Of a stretch of 64,000 bases of DNA, positions 23,516-50,325 are shown piece by piece. The stretch comes from a virus. Lineage: Duplodnaviria; Caudoviricetes. A program made the translations under genes and the position numbers. The stretch spans positions 54,437-118,436 of the IMG/VR virus record IMGVR_UViG_3300044557_000104; one strand, given 5' to 3'. Under the pieces are notes generated by a model that saw only the letters and a list, made by a program, of their open reading frames with translations, was not told where the DNA came from and did no database searches. Position 1 is the stretch's first letter; each line of letters starts with the position of its first letter.

Positions 23516-23774
23516 AAAGAAAAGTTGAGAAAACACGTTACTTTAGTTGCGTGATAAATCAACTAGTAGTATACTAAGAACCATAAAGACATTGAGTGAC
23601 CTTAGATGCGAAAACCAAGTATCTTAATAAGTTGCTTAAAAGTCTTTAAGTAAACTAATATGGGCTGGGACAGCCCTTAGTAAATAGCTGTAACCTCTAC
23701 CTAGAGTTAGTAATAACCTAGGCAAGTATGCAGTGTTCCTAGAAGCATGGGAATTTATTCCCAGAGTAGTTCAC
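23516..23774 (+). mobile_element. Non-autonomous IS200/IS605-derived element (copy 1; omegaRNA only, no gene)
   Basis: Preceded by TTAT; left-end hairpin CACG-ttactttagttg-CGTG; right end GAAG-hairpin-GAGTAGTTCAC; homologous to 50051-50305 and to the tnpB 3' region. Confidence 0.8.
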
Positions 23775-23794
23775 GACACCCAAGTAATTGTAGA
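23660..23794 (+). ncRNA. Orphan TnpB omegaRNA, copy 1 (guide from 23775: GACACCCAAGTAATTGTAGA)
   Basis: 29-nt identity (ATGGGCTGGGACAGCCCTTAGTAAATAGC) with the tnpB-adjacent scaffold; compensatory stems. Confidence 0.7.
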
Positions 23795-23855
23795 TAATCC
23801 AACAGATGTAACTGTAGATAATACTAATGATTCTACTGGGGTAACAGCTAAATAA
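23775..23855 (+). pseudogene. Orphan 3' gene fragment (DTQVIVDNPTDVTVDNTNDSTGVTAK*)
   Basis: No start; resembles C-terminus of 50342..50851 (IEDPTGVAAVATDDGAKVTAK*); followed by a terminator. Confidence 0.55.
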
Positions 23856-23861
23856 ATGATT

Positions 23862-23899
23862 AATACCCACCTAATCAATGGTGGGTATTTTCTATATTA
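23862..23899 (+). terminator. Intrinsic terminator plus CTATATTA motif
   Basis: AATACCCACC/GGTGGGTATT perfect stem, T tract, then CTATATTA at 23892. Confidence 0.8.
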
Positions 23900-23992
23900 A
23901 TAAGTAGCGAGAATGCCTTAGCGAAACTAATGGAATACATGAATGCTAATGGTAGGTCAATCAACAACACAAACTATTTAAAAATAATATCG

Positions 23993-24001
23993 TGTTATAA
24001 T
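23993..24001 (+). promoter_or_regulatory. Extended -10 (TGTTATAAT) upstream of tnpB; contains the TTAT motif
   Basis: Consensus TGnTATAAT about 90 nt upstream of the tnpB ATG. Confidence 0.65.
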
Positions 24002-25367
24002 AGAATATGAGGAGTTACCTATAACATTGTTACCCTCTATAGGGTACAATGTGTACATAAACACAATAATTCTTGAAAAGAGGTGGCACAGCATGACTTT
24101 AAAAGGAGTTAAACTAAGAATATATCCTAATAAAGAGCAACAGTTAAAAATTAAACTTAATTTTGGGTATAACAGATTCGTTTGGAATCAAATGTTAAAT
24201 ATGATGATTACTAGATATAAGAATAATCCAGAATTAAGATTTCCAAGTGCTTTCACCCTTAACTATTTGTTACCAGCAATGAAGGAAGAGTATCCTTGGT
24301 TAAAAGATGCAGAGAGTCAGAGTTTGCAACAAACCTGTAAAGACTTAGTAGAATCCTATAAGAAGTTCTTTAAATTACATCAAGGCTTTCCTAAATTTAA
24401 ATCTCGTAAGTATCCTAAGAAAAGCTACCGGTCTACTACGCGTATTAGGTTAATTGATAACCATCATATTAGATTACCTAAACTTGATATTGTATATTTT
24501 AAATCTGGAAGATACCCTAAAGGTAAAATCAAGAATGTAACTATCAGATTGTCTTCAACTGGTAAGTATTATGCAGTTTTACTAGTTGATACAGATATTA
24601 ATAGTCTTCCTAAAACTACTGAATCTGTAGGAATTGATATGGGAGTAGCTGATCTAATGGTTACTAGTGATGGTACCAAATACCCCACGATTAGATTTGA
24701 TAAAATCCTAAGTAAAAAGAAACACTATTGGGAGAAACGGTTAGCACGTAGGAGACTACAAGCACAAGCTCAAATAGCTTGGGATAAGCATAATAAAGTA
24801 CTGGAACCACGTGAGTTATCAGACTTTAATAATTATCTAAAAGCTAAGTGCATGGTAGCTAAGTACAATGAAAAGATTGCTAATCAAAGAAAAGATTATC
24901 TCCATAAACTAACAAAGTCTCTAGTAGAACAATATGATGTGATTAAGATTGAAGATTTGAAAACCAAAAATCTTCTTAAAAATCATAAATTATCTAGAGC
25001 AATTGCTAATCAGTCATGGAGAGAATTACGTACTCAGTTAGAATATAAATGTGAATGGTATGGAAAACAATTAGTCATTGTTAACCCCCGTAAAACATCA
25101 CAAATTTGTTCTAATTGTGGTTATGATGATGGTAAACATACATTAGACATTAGACAGTGGGCTTGTCCACAATGTCATACTCATCATGATAGAGACATCA
25201 ACGCTGCTAAGAATATCTTAGCTAGTGAATAACTAATAAAGGACTAACATGGGCTGGGACAGCCCTTAGTAAATAGCCATAACCTCTACTTGATTATCTT
25301 AGATATTTAAGCAAGTATGTGGTGTTCCTAGAAACTCAATAAAATAATAAAGCAATGAGTAGTCCAT
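23999..25367 (+). mobile_element. tnpA-less IS200/IS605 (IS1341-like) element with decayed ends
   Basis: tnpB plus omegaRNA; ends GAGTAGTCCAT; left boundary placed at TTAT 23995-23998 by analogy with the other copies. Confidence 0.7.
24093..25232 (+). CDS. tnpB: RNA-guided endonuclease TnpB (IS200/IS605 family)
   Basis: KLRIYPN N-terminal HTH; RuvC GIDMG, IEDL, DRDINAA; Zn finger CSNC/CPQC; ATG 24093 has RBS GAGGTG. Confidence 0.95.
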   Translation: MTLKGVKLRIYPNKEQQLKIKLNFGYNRFVWNQMLNMMITRYKNNPELRFPSAFTLNYLLPAMKEEYPWLKDAESQSLQQTCKDLVESYKKFFKLHQGFPKFKSRKYPKKSYRSTTRIRLIDNHHIRLPKLDIVYFKSGRYPKGKIKNVTIRLSSTGKYYAVLLVDTDINSLPKTTESVGIDMGVADLMVTSDGTKYPTIRFDKILSKKKHYWEKRLARRRLQAQAQIAWDKHNKVLEPRELSDFNNYLKAKCMVAKYNEKIANQRKDYLHKLTKSLVEQYDVIKIEDLKTKNLLKNHKLSRAIANQSWRELRTQLEYKCEWYGKQLVIVNPRKTSQICSNCGYDDGKHTLDIRQWACPQCHTHHDRDINAAKNILASE

Positions 25368-25387
25368 AATAGAATATAGATAGTAAG
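25249..25387 (+). ncRNA. TnpB omegaRNA, copy 2 (guide from 25368: AATAGAATATAGATAGTAAG)
   Basis: Immediately 3' of tnpB; GGGCTG/CAGCCC hairpin; GGGACA complementary to TGTTCC (pseudoknot or alternative pairing). Confidence 0.8.
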
Positions 25388-25400
25388 GAGGCTACAAAGT

Positions 25401-25931
25401 TTGGCAATTGAAACAAACGTAGGGCACATTACACAAGCAATTAATTTTAGTGCCCATAAAGACCTGTTCCTAGAATTAGGAAAACCTACTGATTGGACAG
25501 ACCCTAAAAATCCAGATAATGAAAATGCAACAACTACGGATTTAGCAGATTCACAAGCATTTATTAAGATAAATTCTGTGTATTTAGTAGCAGAAAGTGA
25601 TGTTACTGATAGTACTGAGGTGGCTGGTGATTCCTATATTATATATAAAGGAAAGCATTGGTTAATTAGTACCACGGATAAGGCAATTGCAGATAACGCA
25701 TGTTATGTATTGGTAGAAGGAACATTGGGTGTTAGTGCGCTTGAACCGTTTAAGTTTACACAGATTGGTGTTCGTCAAGGAACTGTATTTGCAGACTCTG
25801 TTAAAAATAACACGGTTGCTAAGTCTAGTGATGTTACTACTAAAGGTAGCTTATTGTTCTATGAAAATAGAATGTTAGAAACCTATACAGATGCTACTGC
25901 TAAAGATATTAAATATCTAATGAGATTTTAG
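25401..25931 (+). CDS. Baseplate structural protein
   Basis: MAIETN..H, LGKPTDW..P..P motifs; precedes the DUF4815-type gene as in Herelleviridae. Confidence 0.7.
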   Translation: MAIETNVGHITQAINFSAHKDLFLELGKPTDWTDPKNPDNENATTTDLADSQAFIKINSVYLVAESDVTDSTEVAGDSYIIYKGKHWLISTTDKAIADNACYVLVEGTLGVSALEPFKFTQIGVRQGTVFADSVKNNTVAKSSDVTTKGSLLFYENRMLETYTDATAKDIKYLMRF

Positions 25932-25947
25932 AAAGTGAGGGACATGA

Positions 25948-28900
25948 ATGCCAGTCTATGATGACTCAGCAATAAATAAATTTGATCCCAAAAAGCAATA
26001 TGATAAGATTCTATTTAATGCAGGACGACCTGTATTTAACTTTGAAGTGAACGAACTTCAATCAATGGAACAATACCAACTTGAAATGCTGGGAGATACA
26101 ATTTTTCAAGAAGGTGCTATTATCTCTGGAATGGATATTATTCCACAACCAGACAATGAAGGCACTGATACTGGTTTACCTAACTCATTTAGTGTAGCCA
26201 GCTTAGATACATCTTTTGGATCAGTTAAGACAGATACATATACTAATGATAGTAAATTAACCTTTACTTCTATTAGTAACTTGTCTACTGATTACCCCGC
26301 CCTATCATTTAATGGGACAGTTACCAAAGGTGTATATTCTACTATGAGTTTTACTGTTAAGAAAACCTCTGGTACTTTATCTAAGATGAGTCTTGGGTAC
26401 CCAATGAATATGTTAACACCTATCACTTATACTATTGATGGTGCAAAAATTGCTACTGCTATTAATGATATGAGCGGTGATCCAATTGTAAATTCAGATG
26501 GTGCTCAGGTTAATTTAAATGATGGTAAAGACCATAAAATTGTTGTAACGTTTAAAACACTAGATTCTGGTTCCCCTAGTTTTACATTACATTTTAACCC
26601 CAATTATAATGCTCTAACTACATCAGTTGGTTTAGACATTACTGGACTTTATATCCAAGATGGTAAGGAAGCTACTGATTGGGTTATTAATGTTAATGAT
26701 ACTGGAACAACATCAAGTGTTGATCGTGTAAAGAATTATAGTGTTACATCAGGTACTATCTGGTTAAATGGTGCTATACGTAACTTTGCAACTCAAGATG
26801 TATCTATTAAGGGTACTGGTACTGAAAATATTGGTGTTACTCTAACTGAAAATAAGGTTACATCAGCAGATGATCCAGACCTAGTTGACGACACAGAAAA
26901 CTCATTGACAAATGGTATGAGTGGTGCAGATCGTGTTAAGTATAATGTTGACCTTACTTATAATGATGATACTGCAACAACTATCTTTGTTTTTCAAGAT
27001 AATAAGATTAACCCAGATGCAGTTAAGCCAGATTACTCTAACCTAGCTCCTATCTTAGCTAAGCGTACATTTGATCAGTCTGGTTCATTCCGTACCTCTG
27101 GATTTAATGCTACTCCAACAGATTACAAGTTGGACTCAAGTAAAATTAAACTTAATATTGATGCCGGTCAAGCCTATGTTCGTGGTTACTCAATCAGTAC
27201 CTCAAGTACTACTGGCGTGTTGCTAGATAAAGCTAGTTCAACAGATACCTCTACTAACGAAGGTATTATTTACAATAATGGTAGTGGTGATATTACTTTA
27301 GCTAATCAACCAGTACAAAAGATTACTAATATTACTGCTAATGTGGAAGGTACTAATAACTCAGTTAGTCGTTCTACTTCTGGCAATACAGATACTTTTA
27401 CTACTAATAATGCTTATCGAATTGTTAGTGTAAAACAAGGTTCTATAACCTATGCGGAAGGTACTGATTTTACCCGTGCTGGTAATACTATTATCTGGGG
27501 TGCTGATTCTGCTGGTAACATTTTACCTAATGCAACTATGCCAACGGCCGGTACATCATACTCAGTTGTTTATGACTACAACTATAATATGGTCGAAGGT
27601 ACAGATTATGCAGTTAAGACAGCAGATGAAATTACTAGTATTGATATTGATACCCAAAAGGGTGTTAAGCCAATTAATGGTAGTGTCATTAGTGTAACCT
27701 ATATCTACTTCTTAGCTCGGATTGATATGATTATGATTACCTCGGATCAAGCTAACCCATTTAAGGTTATTAAAGGTGATCCAATGCCACTTGCTACTGC
27801 TACTCCACCAGTTGTTAAGGATAATTATTCACTGGAATTGGGTTATGTATTGATCTACCCTAACTCAGATAAAGCAGTCTTCACCATGCAAACAATCACA
27901 CGGATTCCATTCTCAGGATTGCAAGCATGGAACACTCGTATCTCTAACCTAGAGTACAATGTTTCTGTATCCGCATTAGCTGATAGTGTTGAGAAGTCAG
28001 AAGATCCAATTACTATTCGCGATGCCTTTGCTGATGCGTTTAACAACTTGAACTATGCTAACTCAACTCATGATGGATTTAATGTAGCTTATGATCCAGA
28101 ATATGGTGAAATTACAATCCCACCTAAGTCATATGCTGATTTAGTTCCAACACTGAATGAGTCTAAATCTGATGTCAATGTTAGTGGTAACCTAGTCACT
28201 GCTCCCTATACAGAAGAGAAGTCCATTGGTCAAGATCTAATTACGGGAACTACTAATGTTAATGAATACCAAATTTTTAATGTTAATGGTACCCTATCAA
28301 TTGACCCCGCTAGTGATAATTGGATTGACACAAAGTCAACTACTGTATACGCTAATGGTGGTAGCAAGTCAATCACTGCCAGTCGTTGGTGGATGCACTT
28401 GGGTGCTAATAATGAATCAAGTAGTATTCAGAATACTCTTAATGAGTTACAAGGTGTCCAAGGAATTGACTATAATAGCTGGTCAGGTTCACAAGCAGCA
28501 CAAAATAACTGGTCATCAACGCAAACTGGATATATCATTTCTGATGGTGGTTCTAAGACAGTTGAGTCAGCTATTGAATATATGCGTCAACGAACAATTA
28601 CTTTTGAAGCTAAAAACTTCTTACCATATGAAGATGGATTTGAAATTACTATTGAAGGCACTAGTGTTATTAATCCAACACCAGCATCATCTACTTATAA
28701 AGGTAGTTTAGCAAATAGTTTCAAAGCGGATTCTGCTGGTACTATTAAGGGGTCATTTGACATTCCTGCTGGTGTTATCCAATGTGGTAATCGTTCTATT
28801 AAGATTGAGAACTCTAATGGTAGTTTGGCCAGCGCTAGTTACCAAGCCTATGGTACTATGAAAGATGTTCAATCAATTATTAATAAAACCACAGTTAGTG

Positions 28901-30144
28901 TTACCCTTTATGACCCATTGGCACAATCATTTACCTTAACTCAGAATAAGTCATTGACATCAGTTGACTTATACTTTGCTACAAAGCCAACGTCAACTAG
29001 TGCTAGTCATACCTCCGATATGATTGTACAAATTCGTGAGTTATCAGATGATGGTTATCCTAACCGGAATGTTAAGGGTGAACAAACATTAACTCCAGAT
29101 CAAATTAATGTATCTCAAGATGGGAATACTGCTACTAAGGTTACATTTGATCAGGCTATCCAATTAACTGGGAACCAAGGTTACTGTATTACATTGATCA
29201 GTGATTCAGATGCTTACAATGTGTACACTGCAACTAAGGGTCAGATGGTTATTGGAGATAACCCTTATAAGCTAACTGGTGCTCCTAACGCTAATGGTAA
29301 CTTATTCAAGTCAAATAACGCCCAAACATGGATTGCAGATGGTACTAGTTCATTGAAGTTTGGTGTAAATACTGCTCACTACAATGATGGTGGTACAATT
29401 ATGTTCGACCCTATTGTACTTAAAGACCAACAATTTGTTGATTCAGGTACTGGATCTGTTGTTGATATTGATCGTTTAGCAGCATTAACATCATACCTTA
29501 CACCGGGAACTACAGGGTTAAGTTGGTTTATCCGCATTTTACCAAACTCATCAAGTGCAACAATTGACACTATGCAATGGTCAGCATTGACAGTTACAAA
29601 TGATAATATGCCAAGTGTTACCCCTGCTGCCACTAATGATGCTATTACTAATGAAGTTCATTTGTTTGAACAGTCAAAGGCAATTCAATTAAAAGCAACT
29701 TTTGCATCTGAGAAGTTTGTCAGCCCGATCTTAACTACCGAAGATTTATCACTAGTTGGTGTGCTTACTGGTACAGAAGGTAAGTACTACTCAATTAACT
29801 TAGATGAATCCGGTGATGCGCAGTTTGATACTGTTAAGATTCAGTATGATGCTTATACTCCTAATGGAACATCGGTAACCCCTTACTACTCAGTTGATGG
29901 TGGGAACACATGGTATACTCTTGCTAATGATGGTAAATCTGTGGCTACTCCGATTAGTACACAAAAGATCAGTACCTACTTCACTCGTTACATTTACCAA
30001 GCTAAGGTTCCGGGTGCAGTTGATCAAAACCATTTAGCAAAGCAGATTATGTACTATCTGGATATGAAGGCAAGTACTAACTTCCTAACTCCACGTGTAC
30101 GTAAGTTAACCTCATTGCTGCAGAACAACTCTGCTGAATCATAA
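25948..30144 (+). CDS. Adsorption-associated tail protein (DUF4815-like)
   Basis: FDPKK.Y..ILFNAGR...EVNELQ, LAKRTFDQSGSF, DPLAQSF, P.VRKL motifs. Confidence 0.8.
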   Translation: MPVYDDSAINKFDPKKQYDKILFNAGRPVFNFEVNELQSMEQYQLEMLGDTIFQEGAIISGMDIIPQPDNEGTDTGLPNSFSVASLDTSFGSVKTDTYTNDSKLTFTSISNLSTDYPALSFNGTVTKGVYSTMSFTVKKTSGTLSKMSLGYPMNMLTPITYTIDGAKIATAINDMSGDPIVNSDGAQVNLNDGKDHKIVVTFKTLDSGSPSFTLHFNPNYNALTTSVGLDITGLYIQDGKEATDWVINVNDTGTTSSVDRVKNYSVTSGTIWLNGAIRNFATQDVSIKGTGTENIGVTLTENKVTSADDPDLVDDTENSLTNGMSGADRVKYNVDLTYNDDTATTIFVFQDNKINPDAVKPDYSNLAPILAKRTFDQSGSFRTSGFNATPTDYKLDSSKIKLNIDAGQAYVRGYSISTSSTTGVLLDKASSTDTSTNEGIIYNNGSGDITLANQPVQKITNITANVEGTNNSVSRSTSGNTDTFTTNNAYRIVSVKQGSITYAEGTDFTRAGNTIIWGADSAGNILPNATMPTAGTSYSVVYDYNYNMVEGTDYAVKTADEITSIDIDTQKGVKPINGSVISVTYIYFLARIDMIMITSDQANPFKVIKGDPMPLATATPPVVKDNYSLELGYVLIYPNSDKAVFTMQTITRIPFSGLQAWNTRISNLEYNVSVSALADSVEKSEDPITIRDAFADAFNNLNYANSTHDGFNVAYDPEYGEITIPPKSYADLVPTLNESKSDVNVSGNLVTAPYTEEKSIGQDLITGTTNVNEYQIFNVNGTLSIDPASDNWIDTKSTTVYANGGSKSITASRWWMHLGANNESSSIQNTLNELQGVQGIDYNSWSGSQAAQNNWSSTQTGYIISDGGSKTVESAIEYMRQRTITFEAKNFLPYEDGFEITIEGTSVINPTPASSTYKGSLANSFKADSAGTIKGSFDIPAGVIQCGNRSIKIENSNGSLASASYQAYGTMKDVQSIINKTTVSVTLYDPLAQSFTLTQNKSLTSVDLYFATKPTSTSASHTSDMIVQIRELSDDGYPNRNVKGEQTLTPDQINVSQDGNTATKVTFDQAIQLTGNQGYCITLISDSDAYNVYTATKGQMVIGDNPYKLTGAPNANGNLFKSNNAQTWIADGTSSLKFGVNTAHYNDGGTIMFDPIVLKDQQFVDSGTGSVVDIDRLAALTSYLTPGTTGLSWFIRILPNSSSATIDTMQWSALTVTNDNMPSVTPAATNDAITNEVHLFEQSKAIQLKATFASEKFVSPILTTEDLSLVGVLTGTEGKYYSINLDESGDAQFDTVKIQYDAYTPNGTSVTPYYSVDGGNTWYTLANDGKSVATPISTQKISTYFTRYIYQAKVPGAVDQNHLAKQIMYYLDMKASTNFLTPRVRKLTSLLQNNSAES

Positions 30145-30150
30145 ATATTG

Positions 30151-30191
30151 AAGCATTTCTCTAAAGTGTTTAACTAGAGAGGTGCTTTTTT
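30151..30191 (+). terminator. Intrinsic terminator
   Basis: AAGCATTTCTCTA...TAGAGAGGTGCTT + T tract. Confidence 0.75.
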
Positions 30192-30298
30192 ATTGCCTTT
30201 TTTGTATACAAATATGAATAAAATGTGAATTAAGTCTGATAAAACCCTGTCTATATTATAGAGTAGCAAAATATATATAGAAGAGGAGTGTGGTAACT

Positions 30299-30574
30299 GT
30301 GGCGGATAATAATCAGGAATTTACAGATGAAATGAAGATGCTAATGGATATTCAACAGCGTATCGCCCGTGTTGAAGCTAATACATCTGATTTGAAGAGT
30401 ATTGAAAGTAAGGCTGATCAGGCGGTAACACAAGCTAACGCATCATATAGTCTTGCACAAGAAGCAATACATAGAACGGAGAGTCAGAAGACTACGTTGT
30501 ATGCTGTAATTGGCTTTGTTGCTGTAAGTGTATTAGCCCCCCTACTGATCGAAATTGCAACTAAGATGTTCTAG
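30299..30574 (+). CDS. XhlA/holin-like protein (coiled coil + C-terminal TM helix)
   Basis: DIQQRIARVE coiled coil and hydrophobic C-terminus. Confidence 0.6.
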   Translation: MADNNQEFTDEMKMLMDIQQRIARVEANTSDLKSIESKADQAVTQANASYSLAQEAIHRTESQKTTLYAVIGFVAVSVLAPLLIEIATKMF

Positions 30575-30595
30575 TAAGAAAGGGTGAAACCTCAT

Positions 30596-31090
30596 ATGTA
30601 TAAATCAAGTAATAAAACGGGTCGTGATAATAAAAAGGTATATAATATAAAGAAGAGAGAGATTGCTAAGTATAAGAAGGAATTAGTTGCTTACGTTAGA
30701 TCAGTATCAGAGATAGCTTTTGCTACATTGGCTGGTTTAGGTGAAACAACTTATACTGGAAAACTTGGTGAGGGTAAGTTAGGAACACTTCTAGCTAATC
30801 CCCCAGAACTTGGTACATTATCATTACCTGCTTTCTTAGGACAAGGGTCAAAGATAGATAAGGACGATCAGGAATTAATTGATGCAAAGAAAGGTTATTT
30901 ATATATTAGTCGTGATAAAGAAACCATGACTTATACTGTTACCTTCCACATGGAGAAACCAGATCAATTTAATCCTTACCTTGATGCTCATAAGACTTTT
31001 AAACAAGCATTACCAATGATTATTAGAGATAACGGGATTATTACAACCCAGTTATATTCTATTACTAAGATTCTGAATCTCTTTAAGTAA
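30596..31090 (+). CDS. Hypothetical protein
   Basis: ORF with RBS AGGGTG. Confidence 0.55.
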   Translation: MYKSSNKTGRDNKKVYNIKKREIAKYKKELVAYVRSVSEIAFATLAGLGETTYTGKLGEGKLGTLLANPPELGTLSLPAFLGQGSKIDKDDQELIDAKKGYLYISRDKETMTYTVTFHMEKPDQFNPYLDAHKTFKQALPMIIRDNGIITTQLYSITKILNLFK

Positions 31091-41786: not shown

Positions 41787-42923
41787 ATGTATATAAAAGC
41801 AAGAACAGTTAGATTATACCCTAATGTTCATATGACTAAGGAATTAGATAGGTTGTGTGATTATAGAAGATACTGCTGGAATTTAGGGTTAGAAGTATGG
41901 AACAACATGTATGATCTACACTTGGTAGATAAAGATAATAATCCTAGTCCTAGTAAAAGAAGGGTTAGGGATATTATTGTTAGCCAAAAACAGGACTGGC
42001 AATATGCACTATCTTCTAGGGTGCTTCAACAAGGGATAGAAGATTTAGGAAACGCGTGGGAACACTTTTTCAAAAAGGATCAATCAGATTGGGGAAAGCC
42101 CCAATTTAAATCTAAAAGAGCATCCAGACAAGGTTTTAAGTCTGATAGAATTAAGTTCGTCAAAGGGAAACTTAGACTAGATAAACCTAGAGATAATAAA
42201 TCTGCTTGGTATGATATTAGGTTAAAGGGCAATCTTTTAGACTATGACTATGGAACTGTTAGTATATACAGGGTAAATGGTAACTATTACGCTTCTATTC
42301 CTTATAAAATAGAGGATATAAAAGATAAACCTAAAACTAGCAAAAATACTGCTGTAGATGTTAATGTAGGACATTTTAACTATACAGATGGTTCTTTAAA
42401 TGTATTACCAGACAAATTAGCTAATCTATATAGTAGGATCAAACATTATCAAAAAATGTTATCACGTAAGAAACCCGGAAGTATAAATTATCAAGAAGTG
42501 AGAACCAAACTTCAACGTGATTATACTAAGGTGACTAACTTACAATATGATATTATTCATAAATTTACTACAAAACTAGTATCTAACTATGACACTATAG
42601 TTATTGAAGACTTAGATGTTAAACATATGAAGATGAGCCATGTAGCTTCCAAAGGGTTACAACGTTCTCAATTTGGATATTTTAAACAAGTTCTACAGTA
42701 CAAATGTGATTGGTATGGCAAAAACCTAGTAATTGCAGACAGATTATATCCTAGCACTCAAAGATGTAGTGAGTGTGGTAATGTTAAACAAGGTGATGAT
42801 AGAATAACCCTTCAAGGAAATAGGAAGCATCATACTAAACATAATGAATATATTTGTTATAATTGTGGGGCTATTCTAGATAGAGATGAAAACGCAGTAC
42901 AAAACTTATTACAGTTAATTTAA
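41787..42923 (+). CDS. tnpB: RNA-guided endonuclease TnpB (IS607-like)
   Basis: VRLYPN...RYCWN; RuvC AVDVN, IEDL, DRDENA; YPSTQRCSEC...CYNC. Confidence 0.9.
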   Translation: MYIKARTVRLYPNVHMTKELDRLCDYRRYCWNLGLEVWNNMYDLHLVDKDNNPSPSKRRVRDIIVSQKQDWQYALSSRVLQQGIEDLGNAWEHFFKKDQSDWGKPQFKSKRASRQGFKSDRIKFVKGKLRLDKPRDNKSAWYDIRLKGNLLDYDYGTVSIYRVNGNYYASIPYKIEDIKDKPKTSKNTAVDVNVGHFNYTDGSLNVLPDKLANLYSRIKHYQKMLSRKKPGSINYQEVRTKLQRDYTKVTNLQYDIIHKFTTKLVSNYDTIVIEDLDVKHMKMSHVASKGLQRSQFGYFKQVLQYKCDWYGKNLVIADRLYPSTQRCSECGNVKQGDDRITLQGNRKHHTKHNEYICYNCGAILDRDENAVQNLLQLI

Positions 42924-43458: not shown

Positions 43459-43472
43459 ATTTTGAGCAAAGT

Positions 43473-43501: not shown

Positions 43502-43531
43502 ATAACCATAAACGGAAAGGTGGTTATACCC

Positions 43532-43933: not shown

Positions 43934-43944
43934 GGGGAATCTAT

Positions 43945-44436: not shown

Positions 44437-44454
44437 TAGAAATGAGGAATTGAA

Positions 44455-45630
44455 ATGGATTTTCAAGAACAATTAAAACAACAATTAGCTAAATTTGATA
44501 GCAATTCAGAAAGTACAAGTAACACAGACCAACCACGTCACCAACCTATTCGTATTTCTAAGAAGCGTAAATTTTTTGGGCGTATCTTACCAATTGCTCC
44601 TAGTGACATAAATGCACCGTTTGCAGTTCCTTTTGAACGTGTATGGCTTCCTTATAAGACCCAAGCTGGTGCAGTATCCCAAGTACCTGTTATCATTAAC
44701 TCAGATGATCCAGAAGATGAAATTGCTAAAATCTGTAACTGGTTGGTTATGCAAAACAACAAATACCGTAAGGAACACCAAGGGTACACTGATGACATTA
44801 TTAATATCTTTGATAAGAAGCCAGTCTATGGATTCCACATTGAACGCAGAGCAGAAATTTTGGGTGTTGAATTAGACCCACAAACTGGCAACATGTTAAC
44901 AAATGCTAATGGACTTGCAGATGTTAAGAACTATTTATTGCCTATCTCTGCATACACTAATATTCTTCGCTTATTAGTAGAACCAGATATGCCATACCAA
45001 ATTAGTGGTCATCCATTTGCTACTCCACAACAATTCATTACTCCTGCTGAAACATTCCCACTGGGTATTCAATTTGATGGTAGCACAGACTATCCAACAA
45101 CACCACGCCCAGATATTGTGTTACCAGCTATTACCTATAACTATGTAGAAAAGAATGCAGATGGTTCATACAAGTACTTTGATGACCCTGTAAAGGCTAA
45201 TGAGGTAACTCGTACTGCTAGTCCAGACTTCTATAAATTAGTATTAGCACAACTTAAAGATCGTGTTCGTCAAGCTACTACTAATGCTAAGTCACAACCA
45301 CAACAACCAGCACAACCACAGAGTAGCCAACCATCATTAACAGCCCCTGCATGGAGTTCAGAAATGTCAGAACCACAAGCTACTCCTCAACCTACTAAGA
45401 CAGAAACACCCAATGCTTCAACTCCATGGACACCAGCTCCAGAAGATGAAACTACTGCTGATCCATTTGAAAAGAAGGAACCACAAGGTAGTACAGAAAT
45501 GCCTGCTACACCTTCTACTGAATCAGCACAGCCACAATGGAATCCAAGCCCAGACACAGAAGATACTGATGATGAATTTAATGCAAGTTCAGATGTAAGT
45601 GATATTCTACATGGTCTGGGATTAGAATAA
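44455..45630 (+). CDS. Single-stranded DNA-binding protein (gp32-like) with low-complexity acidic tail
   Basis: GRILP motif; Pro/Gln/Thr linker; acidic end; synteny. Confidence 0.6.
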   Translation: MDFQEQLKQQLAKFDSNSESTSNTDQPRHQPIRISKKRKFFGRILPIAPSDINAPFAVPFERVWLPYKTQAGAVSQVPVIINSDDPEDEIAKICNWLVMQNNKYRKEHQGYTDDIINIFDKKPVYGFHIERRAEILGVELDPQTGNMLTNANGLADVKNYLLPISAYTNILRLLVEPDMPYQISGHPFATPQQFITPAETFPLGIQFDGSTDYPTTPRPDIVLPAITYNYVEKNADGSYKYFDDPVKANEVTRTASPDFYKLVLAQLKDRVRQATTNAKSQPQQPAQPQSSQPSLTAPAWSSEMSEPQATPQPTKTETPNASTPWTPAPEDETTADPFEKKEPQGSTEMPATPSTESAQPQWNPSPDTEDTDDEFNASSDVSDILHGLGLE

Positions 45631-45651
45631 ATAGTAAGGTGATATATTAAG

Positions 45652-48057
45652 ATGGCAAAAAAGAAAAGTAACTTAGATTTAACTGCTTTAATGGGTCAGC
45701 TTAATCAAGACCCAGATTTAACTACTTATAGTGAAACAGAATTAGGTGAAGTCCGTACATGGGTTCCTACATTGATTCCAGAGTTCGATTATAACCTTGT
45801 TGGGGGCATTCCCGCTACTGGTCAAGTGTCTGAGGTAGCTGGCCCACCTAGTTCAGGGAAGGCTTTAGATAATAATACAATTATCCCTACTCCTAAGGGT
45901 GATACAAAGTTATCTGATATCAAGGTTGGAGACTATGTATTTGATGAGAAGGGCAAACCAACTAAAGTATTAGGTGTATATCCTAAAGGTAAGCTTAATA
46001 CCCTTGAAGTTGTATTTAAAGATGGTCGCAAAGCCTATGTTAACAATGAACATATTTGGGGTGTCTATAGTACGCATAAACGTTCTTATCTGGAGAGAAC
46101 AACACAGGAAATTATAGATAGTGGTGTTTACACAGAGCATGAGACAAAGTGGGGCAAACCAGATAACCCTACAGTTGTTAAACGATACAACTATAATATT
46201 CCAGTAGCAGATTGGTCTATGTACCCAGAACAGGAACTACCATTACACCCATATGTAATGGGAGCACTATTAGGTGATGGATGCTTAACTGAACGTCAGT
46301 TGACTATGAGTTCAGATGACCCCTTTGTTGTTAATAAGGTATCTGATCTACTCCCATATAAGAACCATCCTGTTAAAAACTCAGATTACAACTTTAATTG
46401 GACATTTGCCTTAGATGAAAAAGTTGAGGGTATTCAAAATGGTATTACCAAGATTCAAACATCTATGGTTATGCCAGAAGATCTAGCAGGAGCTAATTCA
46501 TATACTAAATATATTCCTAAAGAGTACCTTGAAAATTCTCGTGAGAATCGAGAAATGCTTATGCAAGGCTTGGTAGATACAGATGGTAATGTAAGCAAAA
46601 AGTGGTTGGCTGTTTCATACTCTACAGTATCCCCACAATTGAAACATGATATTAGTATGTTATCACGATCTCTAGGGTATCTTACTAACATTCATGTGGA
46701 CGATCGTACCCATGATAAGAACTCTATTCATAAGCATGTGTGTTACAGTATTGTATTTAAGGGTAAGGCAGATAAGTTAGGAAGAATTGTAACACTCCCT
46801 CGTAAGAAGCAAATTGTACTGGATAGTTTTAGTGCAAAGCATAATTATGATCAAGTTCCTATTGTTGCTATCAATGATCTTCATGAGGAACGTGAAATGA
46901 CCTGCTTGTATGTAGATAGTGACAGTCATTTATTCCTAGCTAATGACTATATTGTTACCCATAACACTACTTTTGCAGGTAGCGTTATCAAAAATGCTAT
47001 TAAGATGGGATTCCTAATCGTCTACTTTGACGTTGAATCCACACAACACTCATCACGGTTGCAACAACTGGGTGTTGACCCATCTAAGGTGTTAACTATG
47101 ACACCATCACGTTTAAAAGATGGCACTGTACGACCATTGAGCATTGAATCAATTGGTCAAAAGATCATTGATATCCTTGCTGAGGTACATTCGCAGTCCC
47201 CTGATACACCAGTACTATTCACTTGGGATAGTGTTGCTATTACTCAATCAGATATGCAGGCAGATGCTGATATTGATCAACAATTAGTGGGACAACAAGC
47301 TAAGGCATTAGCAAGCATTGGGCGTAAGATTCAAAGCAACTTGGTTATGAATAATGGTACACTACTTGCCTTTAACCAAGCTCGTGATGACTTCCAAGCA
47401 GCTAACCCTAAGTATGCACAACAAAAGACCACTGGTGGTAAAGGTTGGGAACACCTATTATCTACACGGATTACCTTCCAACAAGCAGGTAAGATTAAGG
47501 TAAGTGCTTCTGATAATGAAGCTATTGGGACACATACACGTATTAAGGTTCCTAAGTCTAAAGTTGGTGATAACTTTGATTCTAACTTTACAGTTGAATT
47601 AATTGGTGCTCAAGGCTACGACTTTGAATATAATTTAGTTGTAGAAGCACAGGAACAAGGGTTCATCAATAAGGGTAATTGGCCACACTATGTGACTGAT
47701 GATGGTGAAGACATCAAGGAACAGAATGTCTATAAACTAGCTAACCGATTTAAAGACCCTGATTTAATTGAAGTTAAAACAGAGCTTTGGCAAAAAGTTC
47801 TCAAGCACTACTTCCCAGAATGTTATCCACCGTTGTTTAACACAACTGGATTCATGCACGTCAAGGATTTTCCTATTATCAAGGGGTTACGTAAGTATTA
47901 TGCAGACATTCAAGAGAAGTTACCACTGGAACAACGTGCATACAACTATAATGATTTTATGTCTGCCTTAGCTAATGATGATATTCCAGAGGATATTGTA
48001 GCTGAAATGAATGAATCAGCTCCTGATCCTACTCCTACTGATGAGGGGGCTGAATAA
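45652..48057 (+). CDS. recA: RecA/UvsX-like recombinase containing an intein
   Basis: GGIP...EVAGPPSSGK|TT; YFDVE; WDSVA; NQAR; GGKGWEH. Confidence 0.9.
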   Translation: MAKKKSNLDLTALMGQLNQDPDLTTYSETELGEVRTWVPTLIPEFDYNLVGGIPATGQVSEVAGPPSSGKALDNNTIIPTPKGDTKLSDIKVGDYVFDEKGKPTKVLGVYPKGKLNTLEVVFKDGRKAYVNNEHIWGVYSTHKRSYLERTTQEIIDSGVYTEHETKWGKPDNPTVVKRYNYNIPVADWSMYPEQELPLHPYVMGALLGDGCLTERQLTMSSDDPFVVNKVSDLLPYKNHPVKNSDYNFNWTFALDEKVEGIQNGITKIQTSMVMPEDLAGANSYTKYIPKEYLENSRENREMLMQGLVDTDGNVSKKWLAVSYSTVSPQLKHDISMLSRSLGYLTNIHVDDRTHDKNSIHKHVCYSIVFKGKADKLGRIVTLPRKKQIVLDSFSAKHNYDQVPIVAINDLHEEREMTCLYVDSDSHLFLANDYIVTHNTTFAGSVIKNAIKMGFLIVYFDVESTQHSSRLQQLGVDPSKVLTMTPSRLKDGTVRPLSIESIGQKIIDILAEVHSQSPDTPVLFTWDSVAITQSDMQADADIDQQLVGQQAKALASIGRKIQSNLVMNNGTLLAFNQARDDFQAANPKYAQQKTTGGKGWEHLLSTRITFQQAGKIKVSASDNEAIGTHTRIKVPKSKVGDNFDSNFTVELIGAQGYDFEYNLVVEAQEQGFINKGNWPHYVTDDGEDIKEQNVYKLANRFKDPDLIEVKTELWQKVLKHYFPECYPPLFNTTGFMHVKDFPIIKGLRKYYADIQEKLPLEQRAYNYNDFMSALANDDIPEDIVAEMNESAPDPTPTDEGAE
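45862..46965 (+). mobile_element. Class 3-type intein (368 aa, Ala1) with LAGLIDADG endonuclease
   Basis: ALDNNTIIPTP; EHIW, MTCLYV, IVTHN|T (W-C-T triad); MGALLGDG, MQGLVDTDG. Confidence 0.92.
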
Positions 48058-48407
48058 TGCCAAAGCGTTTAGCTACTACTACAGAGGATATCTTAGATAT
48101 TCTTAGTCATAATGATTCAGTGTATAATGTGATTATTAATCAGAAGCTAGAAGTGCTGAAACAGTTTCATAAACACATGGATAATCATGAAAGAGTATTA
48201 GTTGTTAGCCATGATATCTATGCACCACAATCAGCAGCAGTAGTAACCATTGATAAGCTGTATAACAGTTTTGCTCTAGGTCATATCGATAATCGTGTAA
48301 CCGGGGTAAGAATCCCCTACACAATCACCTATGCGTCAGTAATTGCCCATGACTATGCTATTAAGTCAGTCTGGGAAGGTGAAACTGAAAAACAAGATAA
48401 AGATTAA
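48057..48407 (+). CDS. Conserved hypothetical protein downstream of recA
   Basis: TAATG coupling; IPYTITYAS motif. Confidence 0.6.
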   Translation: MPKRLATTTEDILDILSHNDSVYNVIINQKLEVLKQFHKHMDNHERVLVVSHDIYAPQSAAVVTIDKLYNSFALGHIDNRVTGVRIPYTITYASVIAHDYAIKSVWEGETEKQDKD

Positions 48408-48427
48408 AGACAATAGGATCTCTTTAT

Positions 48428-48473
48428 TAGAAAAGTTAAGATAAAAATGTTACTTTAGTAATGAGTAGTCTAC
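48428..48473 (+). mobile_element. 46-nt relic of the IS605-derived family (left end fused to right end)
   Basis: TTAT|TAGAAAAGTTAAGA...TTACTTTAGTAATGAGTAGTCTAC; 21 consecutive nt identical to the right end at 50282-50302. Confidence 0.7.
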
Positions 48474-48534
48474 GTTGACTAGTGGTATAACAAGAGTTAT
48501 AATAAACTTAGATTAAAAGAAAGAGGTATTAACA

Positions 48535-49017
48535 ATGACAAATAGAACTATTACACTAGACGCAGCAACACACTTATTCAATACAAATATCTATAAAGAC
48601 TTAACTCATGTGGCAAATACTGCACGGGCGTCTTACACAAAGCTATCCCAAGATCAGTTTTATAAAGTTATAACTACTAATGTATACTTAAAGAATAATC
48701 ATGATGATTACTTTTATTTCACTGTTGTAGAAACTCCAGATAACACTTTCATCCTTAATAAGGATTACCCAACTGTGACATGGTATGCTAGAAATCGCAA
48801 GGCTCTAGTAGAGTTATTCCCATGCTCTAAAGAAGATATTGGAGTGTATCCAGAGGAAACGGATACACAACAGGTAGAAGATCCAGAGGTTACTGCGTTC
48901 CTTAACTACTTAATGGGGAATATTACTGAAAATTTCAACTTATCTAAGGAAGAGTCTAAAGAATTAAAGGATTCTCTAAGTGAAAAGTTAACCGCGACAA
49001 ATTACAAAAATATCTAG
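48535..49017 (+). CDS. Hypothetical protein (stand-alone transcription unit)
   Basis: RBS GAGGT; upstream -10-like boxes; followed by terminator. Confidence 0.6.
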   Translation: MTNRTITLDAATHLFNTNIYKDLTHVANTARASYTKLSQDQFYKVITTNVYLKNNHDDYFYFTVVETPDNTFILNKDYPTVTWYARNRKALVELFPCSKEDIGVYPEETDTQQVEDPEVTAFLNYLMGNITENFNLSKEESKELKDSLSEKLTATNYKNI

Positions 49018-49025
49018 TTTAACTA

Positions 49026-49062
49026 ATAAGTATTCTTTCATTATAGAAAGGGTGCTTATTTT
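49026..49062 (+). terminator. Intrinsic terminator
   Basis: AATAAGTATTCTTTC/GAAAGGGTGCTTATT + TT. Confidence 0.7.
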
Positions 49063-49261
49063 AGTCTACTGATTTTTAGAGTATACGAGTAAGGGACTCT
49101 ATTAACCTAGTAGTCAAAAGACAATTTGTATAGAAAATACCTGTAATCTTAAAGCTCGTTCCTCTATTGATGATTAGTTTATAAGGGCTTCTATTTTTTA
49201 ATGGTTAAACTCCATTATGATGTATACTTAATATATAATGGATGGAAGTAGGTGACACATA

Positions 49262-50017
49262 ATAGCTAAGAAAAAAGACCCAAAAGATAGTGTAATTGGA
49301 TGGAATACTGATAATAAGAATACATTTAGTACCCTTGGAAATTACTATGTAGGTGATAATGGTAAGAATCTCACCTTTGTACGTAGCCCTGAAAAGTTGT
49401 TAAAGCAGTACTCGAATTTACTACATAAACTAGGTAAGCAATATGGAGATAACCTTAATACAGCACAGGAACGTCAAGACCTATATGCTTACATCACTAA
49501 TACTTTTATTGAGTTGGTACTAGAGTATGATATGGAAAATGATGTGGACTTTCCCGGCTATATTGCTAGAATGCTAAAAGCTCGAATTAGTGGTTCATAC
49601 CTGAATAAATCCAATGAGTATAATCGTCATATCTCCCCTATTGGTTCTCCTGATACTTCTATTGAGAGCTTAGGTGAGGAACTGCAAGGTGCTAGTGGAT
49701 TAACCTATTCCAAGTCTATTTCATCTAATTACCAAGCAGAGATGCAAAAAGATGGGGTTGTACGTGGCTTAGATGTAAAGATGGTGTCTAAAGGTAAAGA
49801 TGGTGATGATGATTACTCACTATTCTATGTCCATGACCAACTTAATCGAACTGAATATGCTAGTGAAGCAAAACATGCTTTGATTGATGCAATTGGTAAA
49901 GGTAACTTATCACCATCAGAAGCTAAAAAGCTAGTAGCTCAACAACTAAATTTAGATGATGATACTATTAATTATGAATATGCAGAGTTAAGGAATTTTC
50001 TCATTAAATTCTCATAA
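49262..50017 (+). CDS. Phage RNA polymerase sigma factor (probable ATA start; track start 49397)
   Basis: QY.NL...L....YI...FIELVLEYD....DFPGYI..ML motif; synteny after recA; frame open to 49256. Confidence 0.75.
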   Translation: MAKKKDPKDSVIGWNTDNKNTFSTLGNYYVGDNGKNLTFVRSPEKLLKQYSNLLHKLGKQYGDNLNTAQERQDLYAYITNTFIELVLEYDMENDVDFPGYIARMLKARISGSYLNKSNEYNRHISPIGSPDTSIESLGEELQGASGLTYSKSISSNYQAEMQKDGVVRGLDVKMVSKGKDGDDDYSLFYVHDQLNRTEYASEAKHALIDAIGKGNLSPSEAKKLVAQQLNLDDDTINYEYAELRNFLIKFS

Positions 50018-50050
50018 ATGGCTAAATTACTCTCGATGTTACTATATTAT

Positions 50051-50305
50051 AAGAAGAGGGTTGAGAGAGCATATTACTTTGATTACGTGGTGAATCAGCT
50101 AGTGATACACTAAGAACCCTAAAGAAATAAAGTAACATTAGATATGAAAACCAAGTATCCTAATAAGTTACTCTAATATCTTTAAACCAATATGGGCTGG
50201 GACAGCCCTTAGTAAATAGCCATAACCTCTATACTTCTAAATATTATAGAAGTACAAGTATGTGGTGTTCCTAAAAGCCCATTACTTTAGTAATGAGTAG
50301 TCCAC
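50051..50305 (+). mobile_element. Non-autonomous IS200/IS605-derived element (copy 3; omegaRNA only)
   Basis: Follows TTAT 50047-50050 within CTATATTAT; colinear with 23516-23774; ends GAGTAGTCCAC. Confidence 0.8.
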
Positions 50306-50325
50306 AAGAAGAGACAAAAATAGAT
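50192..50325 (+). ncRNA. Orphan TnpB omegaRNA, copy 3 (guide from 50306: AAGAAGAGACAAAAATAGAT)
   Basis: 40-nt identity with the tnpB-adjacent scaffold 5' part; variable hairpin keeps its pairing. Confidence 0.7.

What the first reader, a model, noticed from the sequence alone, without database searches (positions are those of the whole stretch)
23516..50325. One TnpB, three omegaRNAs: a dispersed multi-guide OMEGA system in a lytic phage
Seen: the scaffold after tnpB (25249-25367) recurs without any gene at 23660-23774 and 50192-50305. All three share an identical 29-nt 5' block, the GGGACA/TGTTCC complementarity and a GAGTAGTYCAY end. One stem covaries (GCTGTA/TGCAGT versus GCCATA/TGTGGT). 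An internal hairpin differs in sequence in every copy yet still pairs. Each copy has a different 3' flank, so a different guide. No tnpA is in the window. Known: TnpB takes its guide from the sequence 3' of the right end and can load omegaRNAs in trans. Inference: structure conserved despite divergence implies selection on the RNA, i.e. a phage-maintained guide repertoire for one effector.
Basis: partly seen in the sequence, partly recalled or inferred. Interest (0 to 1): 0.85.

Follow-up and report, generated by a model that had tools for sequence, protein, structure and literature searches.

The report
Guide-RNA-only TnpB mini-elements in phage
A large, probably lytic Lactobacillus-type phage carries two gene-less copies of a TnpB transposon that keep only the guide-RNA part, and one of them reads exactly the sequence found at the same spot in sister phages that lack it; this is the layout of a selfish "cut the rival, copy me in" element, a kind already known from bacteria.

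Summary
The repeats are real. Three omegaRNA scaffolds lie at the stated places. They share an exact 29-nt block, and their structure covaries across 20 relatives (96% of cells paired, 21 of 35 pairs compensatory).

"One TnpB, three guides" is too narrow. The 118-kb genome has five tnpB-family genes. One is a close paralogue outside the window with a fourth scaffold, and another is a distant tnpB at 41787-42923.

The orphans are about 260 nt, not 115 nt. Each is a left end plus the last ~85 nt of tnpB plus the right end, so they are PATE-like deletion derivatives of an IS605-type element of Lactobacillaceae. The same promoter-bearing orphan lineage occurs in other Lactobacillus phages.

Orphan C and the tnpB1 cassette are insertions that sibling phage contigs lack. 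The empty C site reads TTAT followed by exactly guide C.

My best reading is selfish guide-only elements that home between co-infecting phages using TnpB supplied in trans. I do not read them as a curated repertoire. Expression, loading and cutting are all untested.

Standalone omegaRNAs are already described in bacteria, and this scan has reported similar orphan units in other phages. I rate this a new member of a known kind, of moderate interest.

The parts
23511..23515 (+). TTTAT immediately 5' of orphan A; inferred transposon-adjacent motif (TAM)
   Evidence: The same pentamer (or TCTAT/ATTAT) precedes the conserved left end in independent copies in G001, Lbab1 and three Lactobacillaceae genomes.
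23516..23774 (+). Orphan A: gene-less mini-element made of left end, remnant of the tnpB 3' end, omegaRNA core and right end
   Evidence: Homology to orphan C and to five G001 orphans spans the whole unit. There is no ORF longer than 43 aa. The CM core hit at 23649-23774 scores 125.7 bits.
23534..23553 (+). Left-end subterminal hairpin of orphan A (8-nt arms, TTTA loop). A -35-like TTGCGT at 23547-23552 overlaps its 3' arm, and a -10-like TATACT lies at 23570-23575.
   Evidence: Folds as ssDNA with z -2.5. It is homologous to the left end of full tnpA+tnpB elements in Lbab1 and in bacteria. The promoter is read by eye and was not reported by the consensus scan.
23604..23624 (+). Orphan-lineage 5' hairpin with invariant loop GAAAACCAA
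   Evidence: The stem covaries in phages 3-521 and SAC12B while the loop is invariant in 9 orphans.
23775..23790 (+). Guide of orphan A (first 16 nt of the 3' flank). It lies in a 26-codon ORF tail (23775-23855) that ends before the terminator at 23862-23889.
   Evidence: The right end stops at 23774 in all alignments. No second match exists in the genome, and only chance matches were found elsewhere.
24002..25365 (+). tnpB1 cassette as an insertion relative to sibling phage contigs
   Evidence: L039 and L040 join window ~24001 to ~25366 and encode the identical downstream 176-aa protein.
24093..25232 (+). tnpB1, 379 aa, predicted active RNA-guided nuclease
   Evidence: Pfam HTH_OrfB_IS605, OrfB_IS605 and Cas12f1-like TNB domains. 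Full-length match to ISDra2 TnpB 8EXA/8H1J at E 1.5e-57. In the one alignment shown (to the closely matching chain 9yyg), the residues aligned with its conserved D-E-D acidic motifs and zinc-finger cysteines are kept; the ISDra2 residue numbering was not checked.
25168..25367 (+). omegaRNA scaffold of tnpB1; the 5' part lies inside the ORF and the core is at 25238-25367
   Evidence: CM hit of 113 bits; alignment with 19 relatives. The terminal hairpin is weakened.
25368..25383 (+). Guide of tnpB1; it overlaps the leader and RBS of the downstream gene (start at 25401)
   Evidence: Its first 10 nt recur after TTAT at 23995-24008.
50047..50050 (+). TTAT 5' of orphan C (TAM-like); present in the empty site of siblings
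50051..50305 (+). Orphan C: gene-less mini-element. The inserted segment is 247 nt, with an 8-bp repeat (AAGAAGAG) at 50051-50058 and 50306-50313. The CM core is at 50181-50305.
   Evidence: Absent from L041 and L042, whose flanking 206-aa gene is identical. CM score 133.8 bits. The core is 90% identical to the tnpB2 scaffold. The left-end hairpin has decayed (z -0.3).
50306..50321 (+). Guide of orphan C; identical to the sequence after TTAT in the unoccupied sibling site
   Evidence: L041:3590-3720 and L042:1338-1468 read TTAT followed by the same sequence, which continues to match beyond 16 nt.

Best explanation
The repeats are omegaRNA (guide-RNA) scaffolds of an IS605-family OMEGA element that is native to Lactobacillaceae and has invaded large, probably lytic Lactobacillus phages.

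In this genome two scaffolds are attached to intact tnpB genes. tnpB1 is in the window. tnpB2, 82% identical in protein, lies outside it. The other two scaffolds (A and C) are gene-less deletion derivatives. Each keeps the left end, the last ~85 nt of tnpB and the right end, so they are PATE-like, guide-only mini-elements.

Each unit takes the DNA just 3' of its right end as its guide. A phage that lacks the insertion carries that same sequence next to a TTAT/TTTAT motif. TnpB made in trans from tnpB1 or tnpB2 would therefore cut the unoccupied site of a co-infecting sibling. Recombinational repair from the occupied genome would then copy the element in, possibly with neighbouring markers. This is transposon-style homing without a transposase. 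On this reading the "multi-guide" layout is a by-product of selfish spread, and any competitive benefit to the phage is secondary.

Shown here: the anatomy, the structural conservation, the presence/absence polymorphism, the identity of guide C with the empty site, conservation of the acidic and zinc-finger motifs of TnpB, and the absence of TnpA.

Inferred only: transcription of the orphans, loading onto TnpB, the TAM, cleavage and homing.
For: 1. Family identity. TnpB1 has all three TnpB domains and matches ISDra2 TnpB over its full length, and the conserved acidic and zinc-finger motifs are kept in the alignment shown.

2. Structured RNA. 96% of cells are paired, 21 of 35 pairs have compensatory changes, and 0 of 500 shuffles reach these values; sliding the partners collapses the pairing. 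The orphans keep every helix, and they add a lineage-specific 5' hairpin with an invariant loop and a covarying stem.

3. PATE-like origin. The 5' part of orphan A is homologous to the left end of full tnpA+tnpB copies in phage Lbab1 and in Lactobacillaceae chromosomes. It is always preceded by TTTAT or a close variant. The left-end and right-end hairpins fold.

4. Insertion polymorphism.
- Orphan C is absent from two sibling contigs that are 94% identical in the left flank and 82% in the right. The empty site there is TTAT plus exactly guide C.
- The tnpB1 cassette is absent from two other sibling contigs.
- Two Lbab1 cassettes are absent from Lb338-1.

5. No self-target. Each guide occurs only once in the genome, behind its own right end.

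6. No transposase. No Y1 transposase is found in this record (87% complete) or in the complete 139.8-kb relative G001. That relative nevertheless has three close tnpB genes and five orphans.

7. The element moves on its own. It is among the few stretches shared at 76-87% identity between two otherwise barely alignable phages. Contigs of both phages come from the same sequencing run.

8. Setting that favours homing. The phage encodes its own UvsX-type recombinase and carries another polymorphic homing element, an intein.

9. Precedent. Standalone omegaRNAs act in trans (PMC10691335), PATEs encode omegaRNAs (10.1101/2023.03.14.532601), and homing into co-infecting phages is proposed in theory (PMC13565253).
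Against: - No expression data exist.
- The -35 boxes of the G000 orphans are weak (3 of 6), and the consensus scan did not report them. Only relatives in other phages have TTGACA-17-TATACT.
- The orphan A core is only 64-66% identical to the two tnpB-linked cores of this genome, so compatibility with TnpB1 or TnpB2 is uncertain.
- No empty site or target was found for guide A.
- The sibling empty site for tnpB1 differs in both the TAM position and the seed (GTAT and a different 7-mer), so those siblings would not be cut.
- In the two Lbab1 empty sites the guide-matching sequence is not preceded by TTTAT. Not every insertion is therefore homing-competent.
- The TAM is inferred from flanks only.
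Confidence: 0.6

Rival explanations
1. Inert relics. The orphans are leftovers of deleted tnpB cassettes. They are not made or not loaded as guide RNA, and they persist only because they are recent or harmless.
For: The left-end hairpin of orphan C has decayed (z -0.3). The promoters of the G000 orphans are weak. Phage Lbab1 holds a clear relic in which a tnpB fragment is fused to a core that lacks the right end. The terminal hairpin of tnpB1 is also eroded.
Against: The orphans keep all helices through compensatory changes. Across several phage genera they share a 5' hairpin with an invariant 9-nt loop and covarying stems. The same deletion junction is kept in seven copies in two phages. Orphans in other phages have near-consensus promoters. 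The orphan C core has stayed 90% identical to the tnpB2 scaffold.
Confidence: 0.2
2. Domesticated guide set. The phage keeps several guides to steer TnpB for its own benefit. It could regulate its own late genes through TTAT plus 8-10-nt partial matches at the left edges of the elements, or it could hit host or rival DNA at distant sites.
For: TTAT plus the first 10 nt of the tnpB1 guide lies over the -10 box upstream of tnpB1. TTAT plus the first 8 nt of guide C lies at the left edge of C. Guides tnpB1 and C cover the leader and RBS of the downstream genes. Published work shows that short guides switch TnpB from cutting to repression (PMC13507860, abstract).
Against: The partial matches are explained by junction duplications. 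These vary in length (8, 12 and 44 bp, or a 36-bp loss) between insertions, and they are missing from the G001 orphans. No guide has a second full or near-full target in the genome. Guide A finds only control-level matches in 401 Lactobacillaceae genomes. The acidic and zinc-finger motifs of TnpB are kept, unlike the nuclease-dead TldR regulators. The units are patchy among siblings.
Confidence: 0.12
3. Ordinary TnpA-driven transposition only. The mini-elements are moved by a host or co-infecting-phage Y1 transposase, and TnpB and the guides play no part in their spread in phages.
For: Orphan A keeps left-end and right-end hairpins like those of the full element and sits 3' of TTTAT. Lbab1 carries a tnpA next to one tnpB. 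The element family occurs at 1-7 copies in some Lactobacillaceae genomes.
Against: No tnpA is found in G000 or in the complete G001. Orphan C and the tnpB cassettes lack usable left-end hairpins and have recombination-type junctions. The exact match of guide C to the sibling empty site is what TnpB-dependent homing predicts, although it would also follow from any canonical insertion.
Confidence: 0.08

Closest known systems
Standalone (effector-less) omegaRNAs of OMEGA systems (Altae-Tran et al. 2021, as summarised in PMC10691335)
   Same: These are gene-less omegaRNA scaffolds with their own flanking guides, in a genome that also encodes compatible TnpB. They are reported to work in trans.
   Different: Here they sit in a probably lytic phage rather than a bacterial chromosome. 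They form a lineage with its own promoter region and an extra conserved 5' hairpin. An unoccupied sibling allele matching the guide was found.
PATE-like non-autonomous IS200/IS605 elements encoding omegaRNAs in Geobacillus stearothermophilus (Meers et al. 2023, 10.1101/2023.03.14.532601)
   Same: The elements consist of a left end plus a right end with no protein gene, the omegaRNA is retained, and they depend on TnpA and TnpB supplied in trans.
   Different: No TnpA is present in this phage genome. Orphan C has lost the left-end hairpin and has an 8-bp flanking repeat. Spread by recombination between phages therefore seems more likely than peel-and-paste transposition.
ISDra2 TnpB-omegaRNA (PDB 8EXA, 8H1J)
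   Same: The protein is homologous over its full length (E 1.5e-57). The RuvC and zinc-finger motifs are conserved in the alignment shown. The scaffold overlaps the 3' end of the gene, and the guide lies 3' of the right end.
   Different: The scaffold sequence is unrelated and matches no Rfam family. The inferred TAM is TTTAT/TTAT, compared with TTGAT for ISDra2 (the ISDra2 value is from memory).
Free-standing homing endonuclease genes of phages (Seg/Mob of T4) and 'transposon non-restorative homing' (review PMC13565253)
   Same: The insertions are intergenic between conserved phage genes and are present or absent among related phages. The predicted action is to cut the rival allele and be copied in during co-infection, with possible co-conversion of flanking markers.
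   Different: Recognition would be by RNA guide plus TAM rather than by protein. The guide-only units carry no nuclease at all and would parasitise one encoded elsewhere in the genome.
TldR, nuclease-dead TnpB-derived RNA-guided repressors of temperate phages (PMC10705468)
   Same: These are phage-borne TnpB relatives that use omegaRNA-like guides.
   Different: TldR proteins have lost the catalytic residues, and their guides match distant host promoters. Here the conserved acidic motifs are kept and the guides are the local flanks.

Membership tests
OMEGA TnpB-omegaRNA system (IS200/IS605 family) | TnpB protein with HTH, OrfB_IS605 (RuvC) and zinc-ribbon TNB domains | tested here: met
   Pfam hits of 49.7, 61.4 and 95.5 bits, all above their cut-offs.
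OMEGA TnpB-omegaRNA system (IS200/IS605 family) | Intact RuvC D-E-D catalytic residues | tested here: met
   In the printed alignment to chain 9yyg (a close match scoring beside ISDra2 TnpB), the residues in GIDMG, IEDL and HDRD and the CxxC...CxxC cysteines align with conserved residues. That these are the catalytic D-E-D of ISDra2 is my reading, not shown by the tool. tnpB2 keeps the same motifs.
OMEGA TnpB-omegaRNA system (IS200/IS605 family) | Structured non-coding RNA that overlaps the 3' end of tnpB and ends at the right end | tested here: met
   The consensus structure has 35 pairs, 21 of them with compensatory changes; 0 of 500 shuffles reach this. No Rfam family matches.
OMEGA TnpB-omegaRNA system (IS200/IS605 family) | The guide (3' flank) matches the unoccupied site next to a TAM | tested here: met
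   For orphan C the sibling contigs read TTAT plus the exact guide. For tnpB1, TTAT is present in G000, but the available siblings have diverged at that site. For orphan A no empty site was found.
OMEGA TnpB-omegaRNA system (IS200/IS605 family) | RNA-guided, TAM-dependent DNA cleavage | not testable with these tools
   This needs plasmid interference or in vitro cleavage assays.
Standalone omegaRNA / PATE-like non-autonomous IS200/IS605 element | No protein-coding gene between the ends | tested here: met
   Only spurious ORFs of 43 aa or fewer overlap orphan A, and none of 50 aa or more overlaps orphan C.
Standalone omegaRNA / PATE-like non-autonomous IS200/IS605 element | Left and right ends (subterminal hairpins) homologous to those of the autonomous element | tested here: inconclusive
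   Met for orphan A: its left end aligns with the left end of tnpA+tnpB copies, and both hairpins fold. Not met for the left end of orphan C, whose hairpin is lost (z -0.3).
Standalone omegaRNA / PATE-like non-autonomous IS200/IS605 element | Insertion 3' of the target motif without target duplication | tested here: inconclusive
   TTTAT or TTAT precedes both orphans. Orphan C is, however, flanked by an 8-bp direct repeat relative to the empty site.
Standalone omegaRNA / PATE-like non-autonomous IS200/IS605 element | A compatible TnpB encoded elsewhere in the same genome | tested here: met
   tnpB1 and tnpB2 carry scaffolds of the same family. The orphan C core is 90% identical to the tnpB2 scaffold. 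Functional compatibility was not tested.
TldR-type domesticated, nuclease-dead TnpB regulators | Loss of RuvC catalytic residues, with the guide matching a distant promoter | tested here: not met
   The conserved acidic motifs are kept. The guides have no second target in the genome, and no host target above control level was found for guide A, the only guide searched.

The most novel reading that the evidence does not exclude
The phage and its relatives run a multi-locus, RNA-guided marker-exclusion system. Two active TnpBs would combine with a selected lineage of promoter-driven "guide genes" to cut co-infecting sibling phages at several intergenic sites at once. This would drive inheritance of the phage's own alleles, including the variable tail-fibre end next to orphan A. 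The TTAT-plus-partial-seed sites at the left edges of the elements would let TnpB throttle its own cassette.
Probability: 0.25. Interest if true: 0.7.

Novelty: new member of a known kind. Interest (0 to 1): 0.48.

Why it matters
If the predicted cutting happens, large Lactobacillus phages would be a natural system in which a TnpB nuclease and separate guide-only units behave as RNA-programmed homing elements between viruses. That idea is so far only raised in theory (PMC13565253).

The case is directly testable, because an occupied and an unoccupied allele with an exact guide match are already in hand.

It also supplies a compact TnpB with several natural scaffold variants and an inferred TTTAT-type TAM.

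For annotation, it shows that these "intergenic repeats" in dairy and fermentation phages are mobile guide-RNA elements.

Tried and rejected
- Rfam at gathering thresholds gave no match in the window.
- Sequencing runs: no RNA holder was listed. Laying contigs of four DNA runs on 22900-26000 gave only short unitigs that break at the repeats, with no clean joint for orphan A.
- Close relatives in IMG/VR, sought through flanking proteins: none, or only 42-44% identical ones. The phage collection had no near match to the flanks.
- Target of guide A: an 18-mer scan of metagenome and viral contigs returned only unrelated chance hits. A scan of 401 Lactobacillaceae genomes gave 11 two-mismatch hits against a similar number for the reversed control.
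- Empty sites for tnpB2 and for two G001 orphans: either no record exists or the contigs end inside the repeat.
- Consensus promoter scan: the orphan promoters of G000 fall below its 4-of-6 rule.
- Defining the left end of the tnpB1/tnpB2 cassettes from bacterial copies was inconclusive. The cassettes share only a 29-nt hairpin at 24024-24052, which is unlike the IS605 left end.
- A transposase-made target duplication as the cause of the flanking repeats was rejected, because the repeat length varies (8, 12 and 44 bp, or a 36-bp loss).
- A staggered TnpB cut 15-21 nt from a TAM as their cause was also rejected, because reading the flanks by eye found no consistent TAM at that distance.
- A 13-of-16 similarity between the tnpB2 guide and the right end of the second tnpB subfamily is at chance level.

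Full report
OBSERVATION

The three units are present as described. The 29-nt block occurs exactly at 23660, 25249 and 50192, with none expected by chance. Each unit ends in GAGTAGTYCAY and is followed by unrelated sequence.

The gene at 24093-25232 is a TnpB. It has the HTH_OrfB_IS605, OrfB_IS605 and Cas12f1-like TNB domains. It matches ISDra2 TnpB over its full length at E 1.5e-57. In the one alignment printed (to chain 9yyg, which scores beside ISDra2 TnpB), the acidic residues in the three RuvC-type motifs and the zinc-finger cysteines align with conserved residues. No Rfam family matches the window.

EXTENT AND ANATOMY OF THE ORPHANS

Both orphans are about 260 nt long, not 115 nt. Homology between A and C, and to orphans in another phage, starts at 23516 and about 50051.

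From 5' to 3', orphan A reads as follows:
- TTTAT in the flank.
- A left end with a subterminal hairpin at 23534-23553 (ssDNA fold z -2.5).
- A -35-like box overlapping the 3' arm of the hairpin, and TATACT 17 nt further on.
- A diverged remnant of the last ~85 nt of tnpB. It contains a hairpin with the loop GAAAACCAA at 23604-23624.
- The 125-nt scaffold core at 23649-23774.
- The guide, from 23775.

The left end is the genuine left end of the full element. It aligns with the sequence to the left of tnpA in the tnpA+tnpB copy of phage Lbab1 and with copies in Lactobacillaceae chromosomes. In all of these it is preceded by TTTAT or a close variant. The orphans are therefore PATE-like deletion derivatives. 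Seven copies in two phages share the same deletion junction, which points to a single origin followed by spread.

Orphan C has the same plan, but its left-end hairpin has decayed (z -0.3).

WHOLE-GENOME CONTEXT

The window is the last 64 kb of a 118,436-bp virus record that is estimated to be 87% complete. The record holds five tnpB-family ORFs:
- tnpB1, in the window.
- tnpB2 on the minus strand at 29643-30788, 82% identical in protein to tnpB1.
- Two copies of a second subfamily, one of them at window 41787-42923.
- A third type near genome position 12 kb.

The covariance model finds exactly four strong scaffolds, namely the three in the window plus the one behind tnpB2. "One TnpB, three guides" therefore becomes two close TnpBs and four guides, with further unrelated TnpB elements alongside.

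The core of orphan C is 90% identical to the tnpB2 scaffold. Orphan A is only 64-66% identical to either gene-linked core.

No Y1 transposase and no integrase was found. The nearest named phages, judged by the UvsX-like recombinase, are Herelleviridae of Lactiplantibacillus plantarum at 58% identity.

RNA STRUCTURE

I aligned 20 copies from two metagenomic phages, phages Lbab1 and 3-521, and six bacterial loci. On this alignment 96% of cells form standard pairs, and 21 of 35 pairs show changes on both sides. No shuffle out of 500 reaches the observed values, and sliding the partners by 1-3 columns drops pairing to 34-53%.

Nine orphans also share the 5' hairpin. Its stem changes in a compensatory way in phages 3-521 and SAC12B, while the 9-nt loop never varies. 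This supports selection on the RNA, in the orphans as well as in the gene-linked copies.

DISTRIBUTION

The scaffold family occurs in the following places:
- A complete 139.8-kb phage, G001, with three close tnpB genes and five orphans.
- Lactobacillus phages Lbab1, Lb338-1, 3-521, SAC12B, 521B, ATCCB and CL1.
- Some Lactobacillaceae chromosomes, at 1-7 copies.

Orphans in G001, 3-521 and SAC12B carry TTGACA-17-TATACT or TACTAT promoters. The orphans of G000 have weaker -35 boxes, and the consensus scan does not report them. Lbab1 also has a plain relic that lacks the right end.

G000 and G001 barely align outside these elements. Even so, contigs of both come from one sequencing run.

INSERTION POLYMORPHISM

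Two sibling contigs encode the identical 206-aa gene upstream of orphan C. They are 94% identical to G000 in the left flank and 82% in the right. Both go straight from that gene to the next one. Their intergenic sequence reads TTAT followed by exactly the guide of orphan C, and the match continues well beyond 16 nt.

Two further contigs encode the identical protein downstream of tnpB1 but lack the whole cassette at 24002-25365. At that site they differ from G000 in the TAM position and in the first bases of the target.

Two Lbab1 cassettes are likewise missing from Lb338-1.

No empty site could be found for orphan A. In one sibling, the right end of a subfamily-2 tnpB element sits at the corresponding place. 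That spot therefore seems to be a hotspot.

JUNCTIONS

Relative to the empty sites:
- Orphan C is flanked by an 8-bp direct repeat.
- The tnpB1 cassette is flanked by a 10-12-bp direct repeat.
- One Lbab1 cassette is flanked by a 44-bp direct repeat.
- The other Lbab1 cassette replaces 36 bp.

IS200/IS605 transposases make no duplications, and the lengths vary. I therefore read these as recombination junctions.

They explain why TTAT plus the first 8 or 10 nt of the element's own guide lies at the left edge of C and of the tnpB1 cassette. Two other first-stage notes on this genome read that feature as autoregulation. The G001 orphans have no such repeat. No guide has a second near-full match in the genome.

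MECHANISM

The best-supported reading is that these are selfish guide-only elements. They rely on TnpB made elsewhere in the genome and spread by homing into unoccupied sibling phages during co-infection. The phage's own recombinase would help this.

The steps that are shown and those that are only inferred are listed under the best explanation. The rivals are inert relics, a domesticated regulatory guide set, and purely TnpA-driven transposition. Each is weighed in its own section.

COMPARISON AND NOVELTY

Standalone omegaRNAs that act in trans, and PATEs that encode omegaRNAs, are published for bacteria (PMC10691335; 10.1101/2023.03.14.532601). Homing of TnpB transposons into co-infecting phages has been proposed in theory (PMC13565253). 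My searches found no experimental report of it.

Earlier follow-ups in this scan describe similar orphan units in other phages.

This is thus a well-documented new member of a known kind. It adds two things: an exact pairing of an occupied and an empty allele with the guide, and a conserved orphan lineage that is so far seen only in phages.

LIMITS

- Nothing here shows transcription, loading or cutting.
- The TAM is inferred from flanks.
- The record is incomplete.
- The sibling contigs are short metagenomic assemblies.

Noticed in passing
window 45652-48057: The UvsX/RecA-like recombinase ORF (801 aa) carries an in-frame LAGLIDADG/Hom_end insert at about aa 288-372. Sibling contig L041 has a 433-aa version and lacks window ~45862-46961. 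This is an intein that is present in one phage and absent in its sibling.
   Followed up: partly
window 41787-42923 (and G000 25132-26453, minus strand): A second tnpB subfamily (30-38% identical to tnpB1) is present in two copies about 90% identical at the nucleotide level, each with its own downstream non-coding tail. BLAST found no orphan copies of that tail.
   Followed up: partly
L040:1-37 versus window 23775-23893: In a sibling phage, the right end of a subfamily-2 tnpB element sits where G000 has orphan A. In both phages a short ORF tail and the same terminator follow. The end of this tail-region gene looks like a hotspot for different TnpB elements.
   Followed up: partly
window 23995-24008 and 50047-50058: TTAT plus the first 10 nt (tnpB1) or 8 nt (orphan C) of the element's own guide lies at the element's left edge. 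This follows from flanking direct repeats. Whether TnpB binds there is unknown.
   Followed up: partly
L086/L104 and L087/L105 (phages Lbab1 and Lb338-1): Two tnpB cassettes of Lbab1 are absent from Lb338-1. One is flanked by a 44-bp duplication and the other replaces 36 bp. In both, tnpB starts directly behind a phage promoter or RBS with no recognisable left end, like a free-standing homing-endonuclease gene.
   Followed up: yes
L053:2414-2684 (phage 3-521): An orphan omegaRNA with a TTGACA-17-TACTAT promoter ends exactly at the first base of tRNA-Gly, so its guide would be the 5' end of the tRNA. Two G001 orphans also lie among tRNA genes (L006).
   Followed up: no
L038, L106, L107 (run SRR16378546): Contigs identical to G000, and contigs that encode proteins identical to G001 proteins, come from the same sequencing run. 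These two distantly related phages share the orphan family.
   Followed up: no
window 24024-24052: A strong 29-nt hairpin (ssDNA z -4.0) lies 40 nt upstream of tnpB1 and is conserved upstream of tnpB2. It is unlike the IS605 left end carried by the orphans, and its role is unknown.
   Followed up: partly
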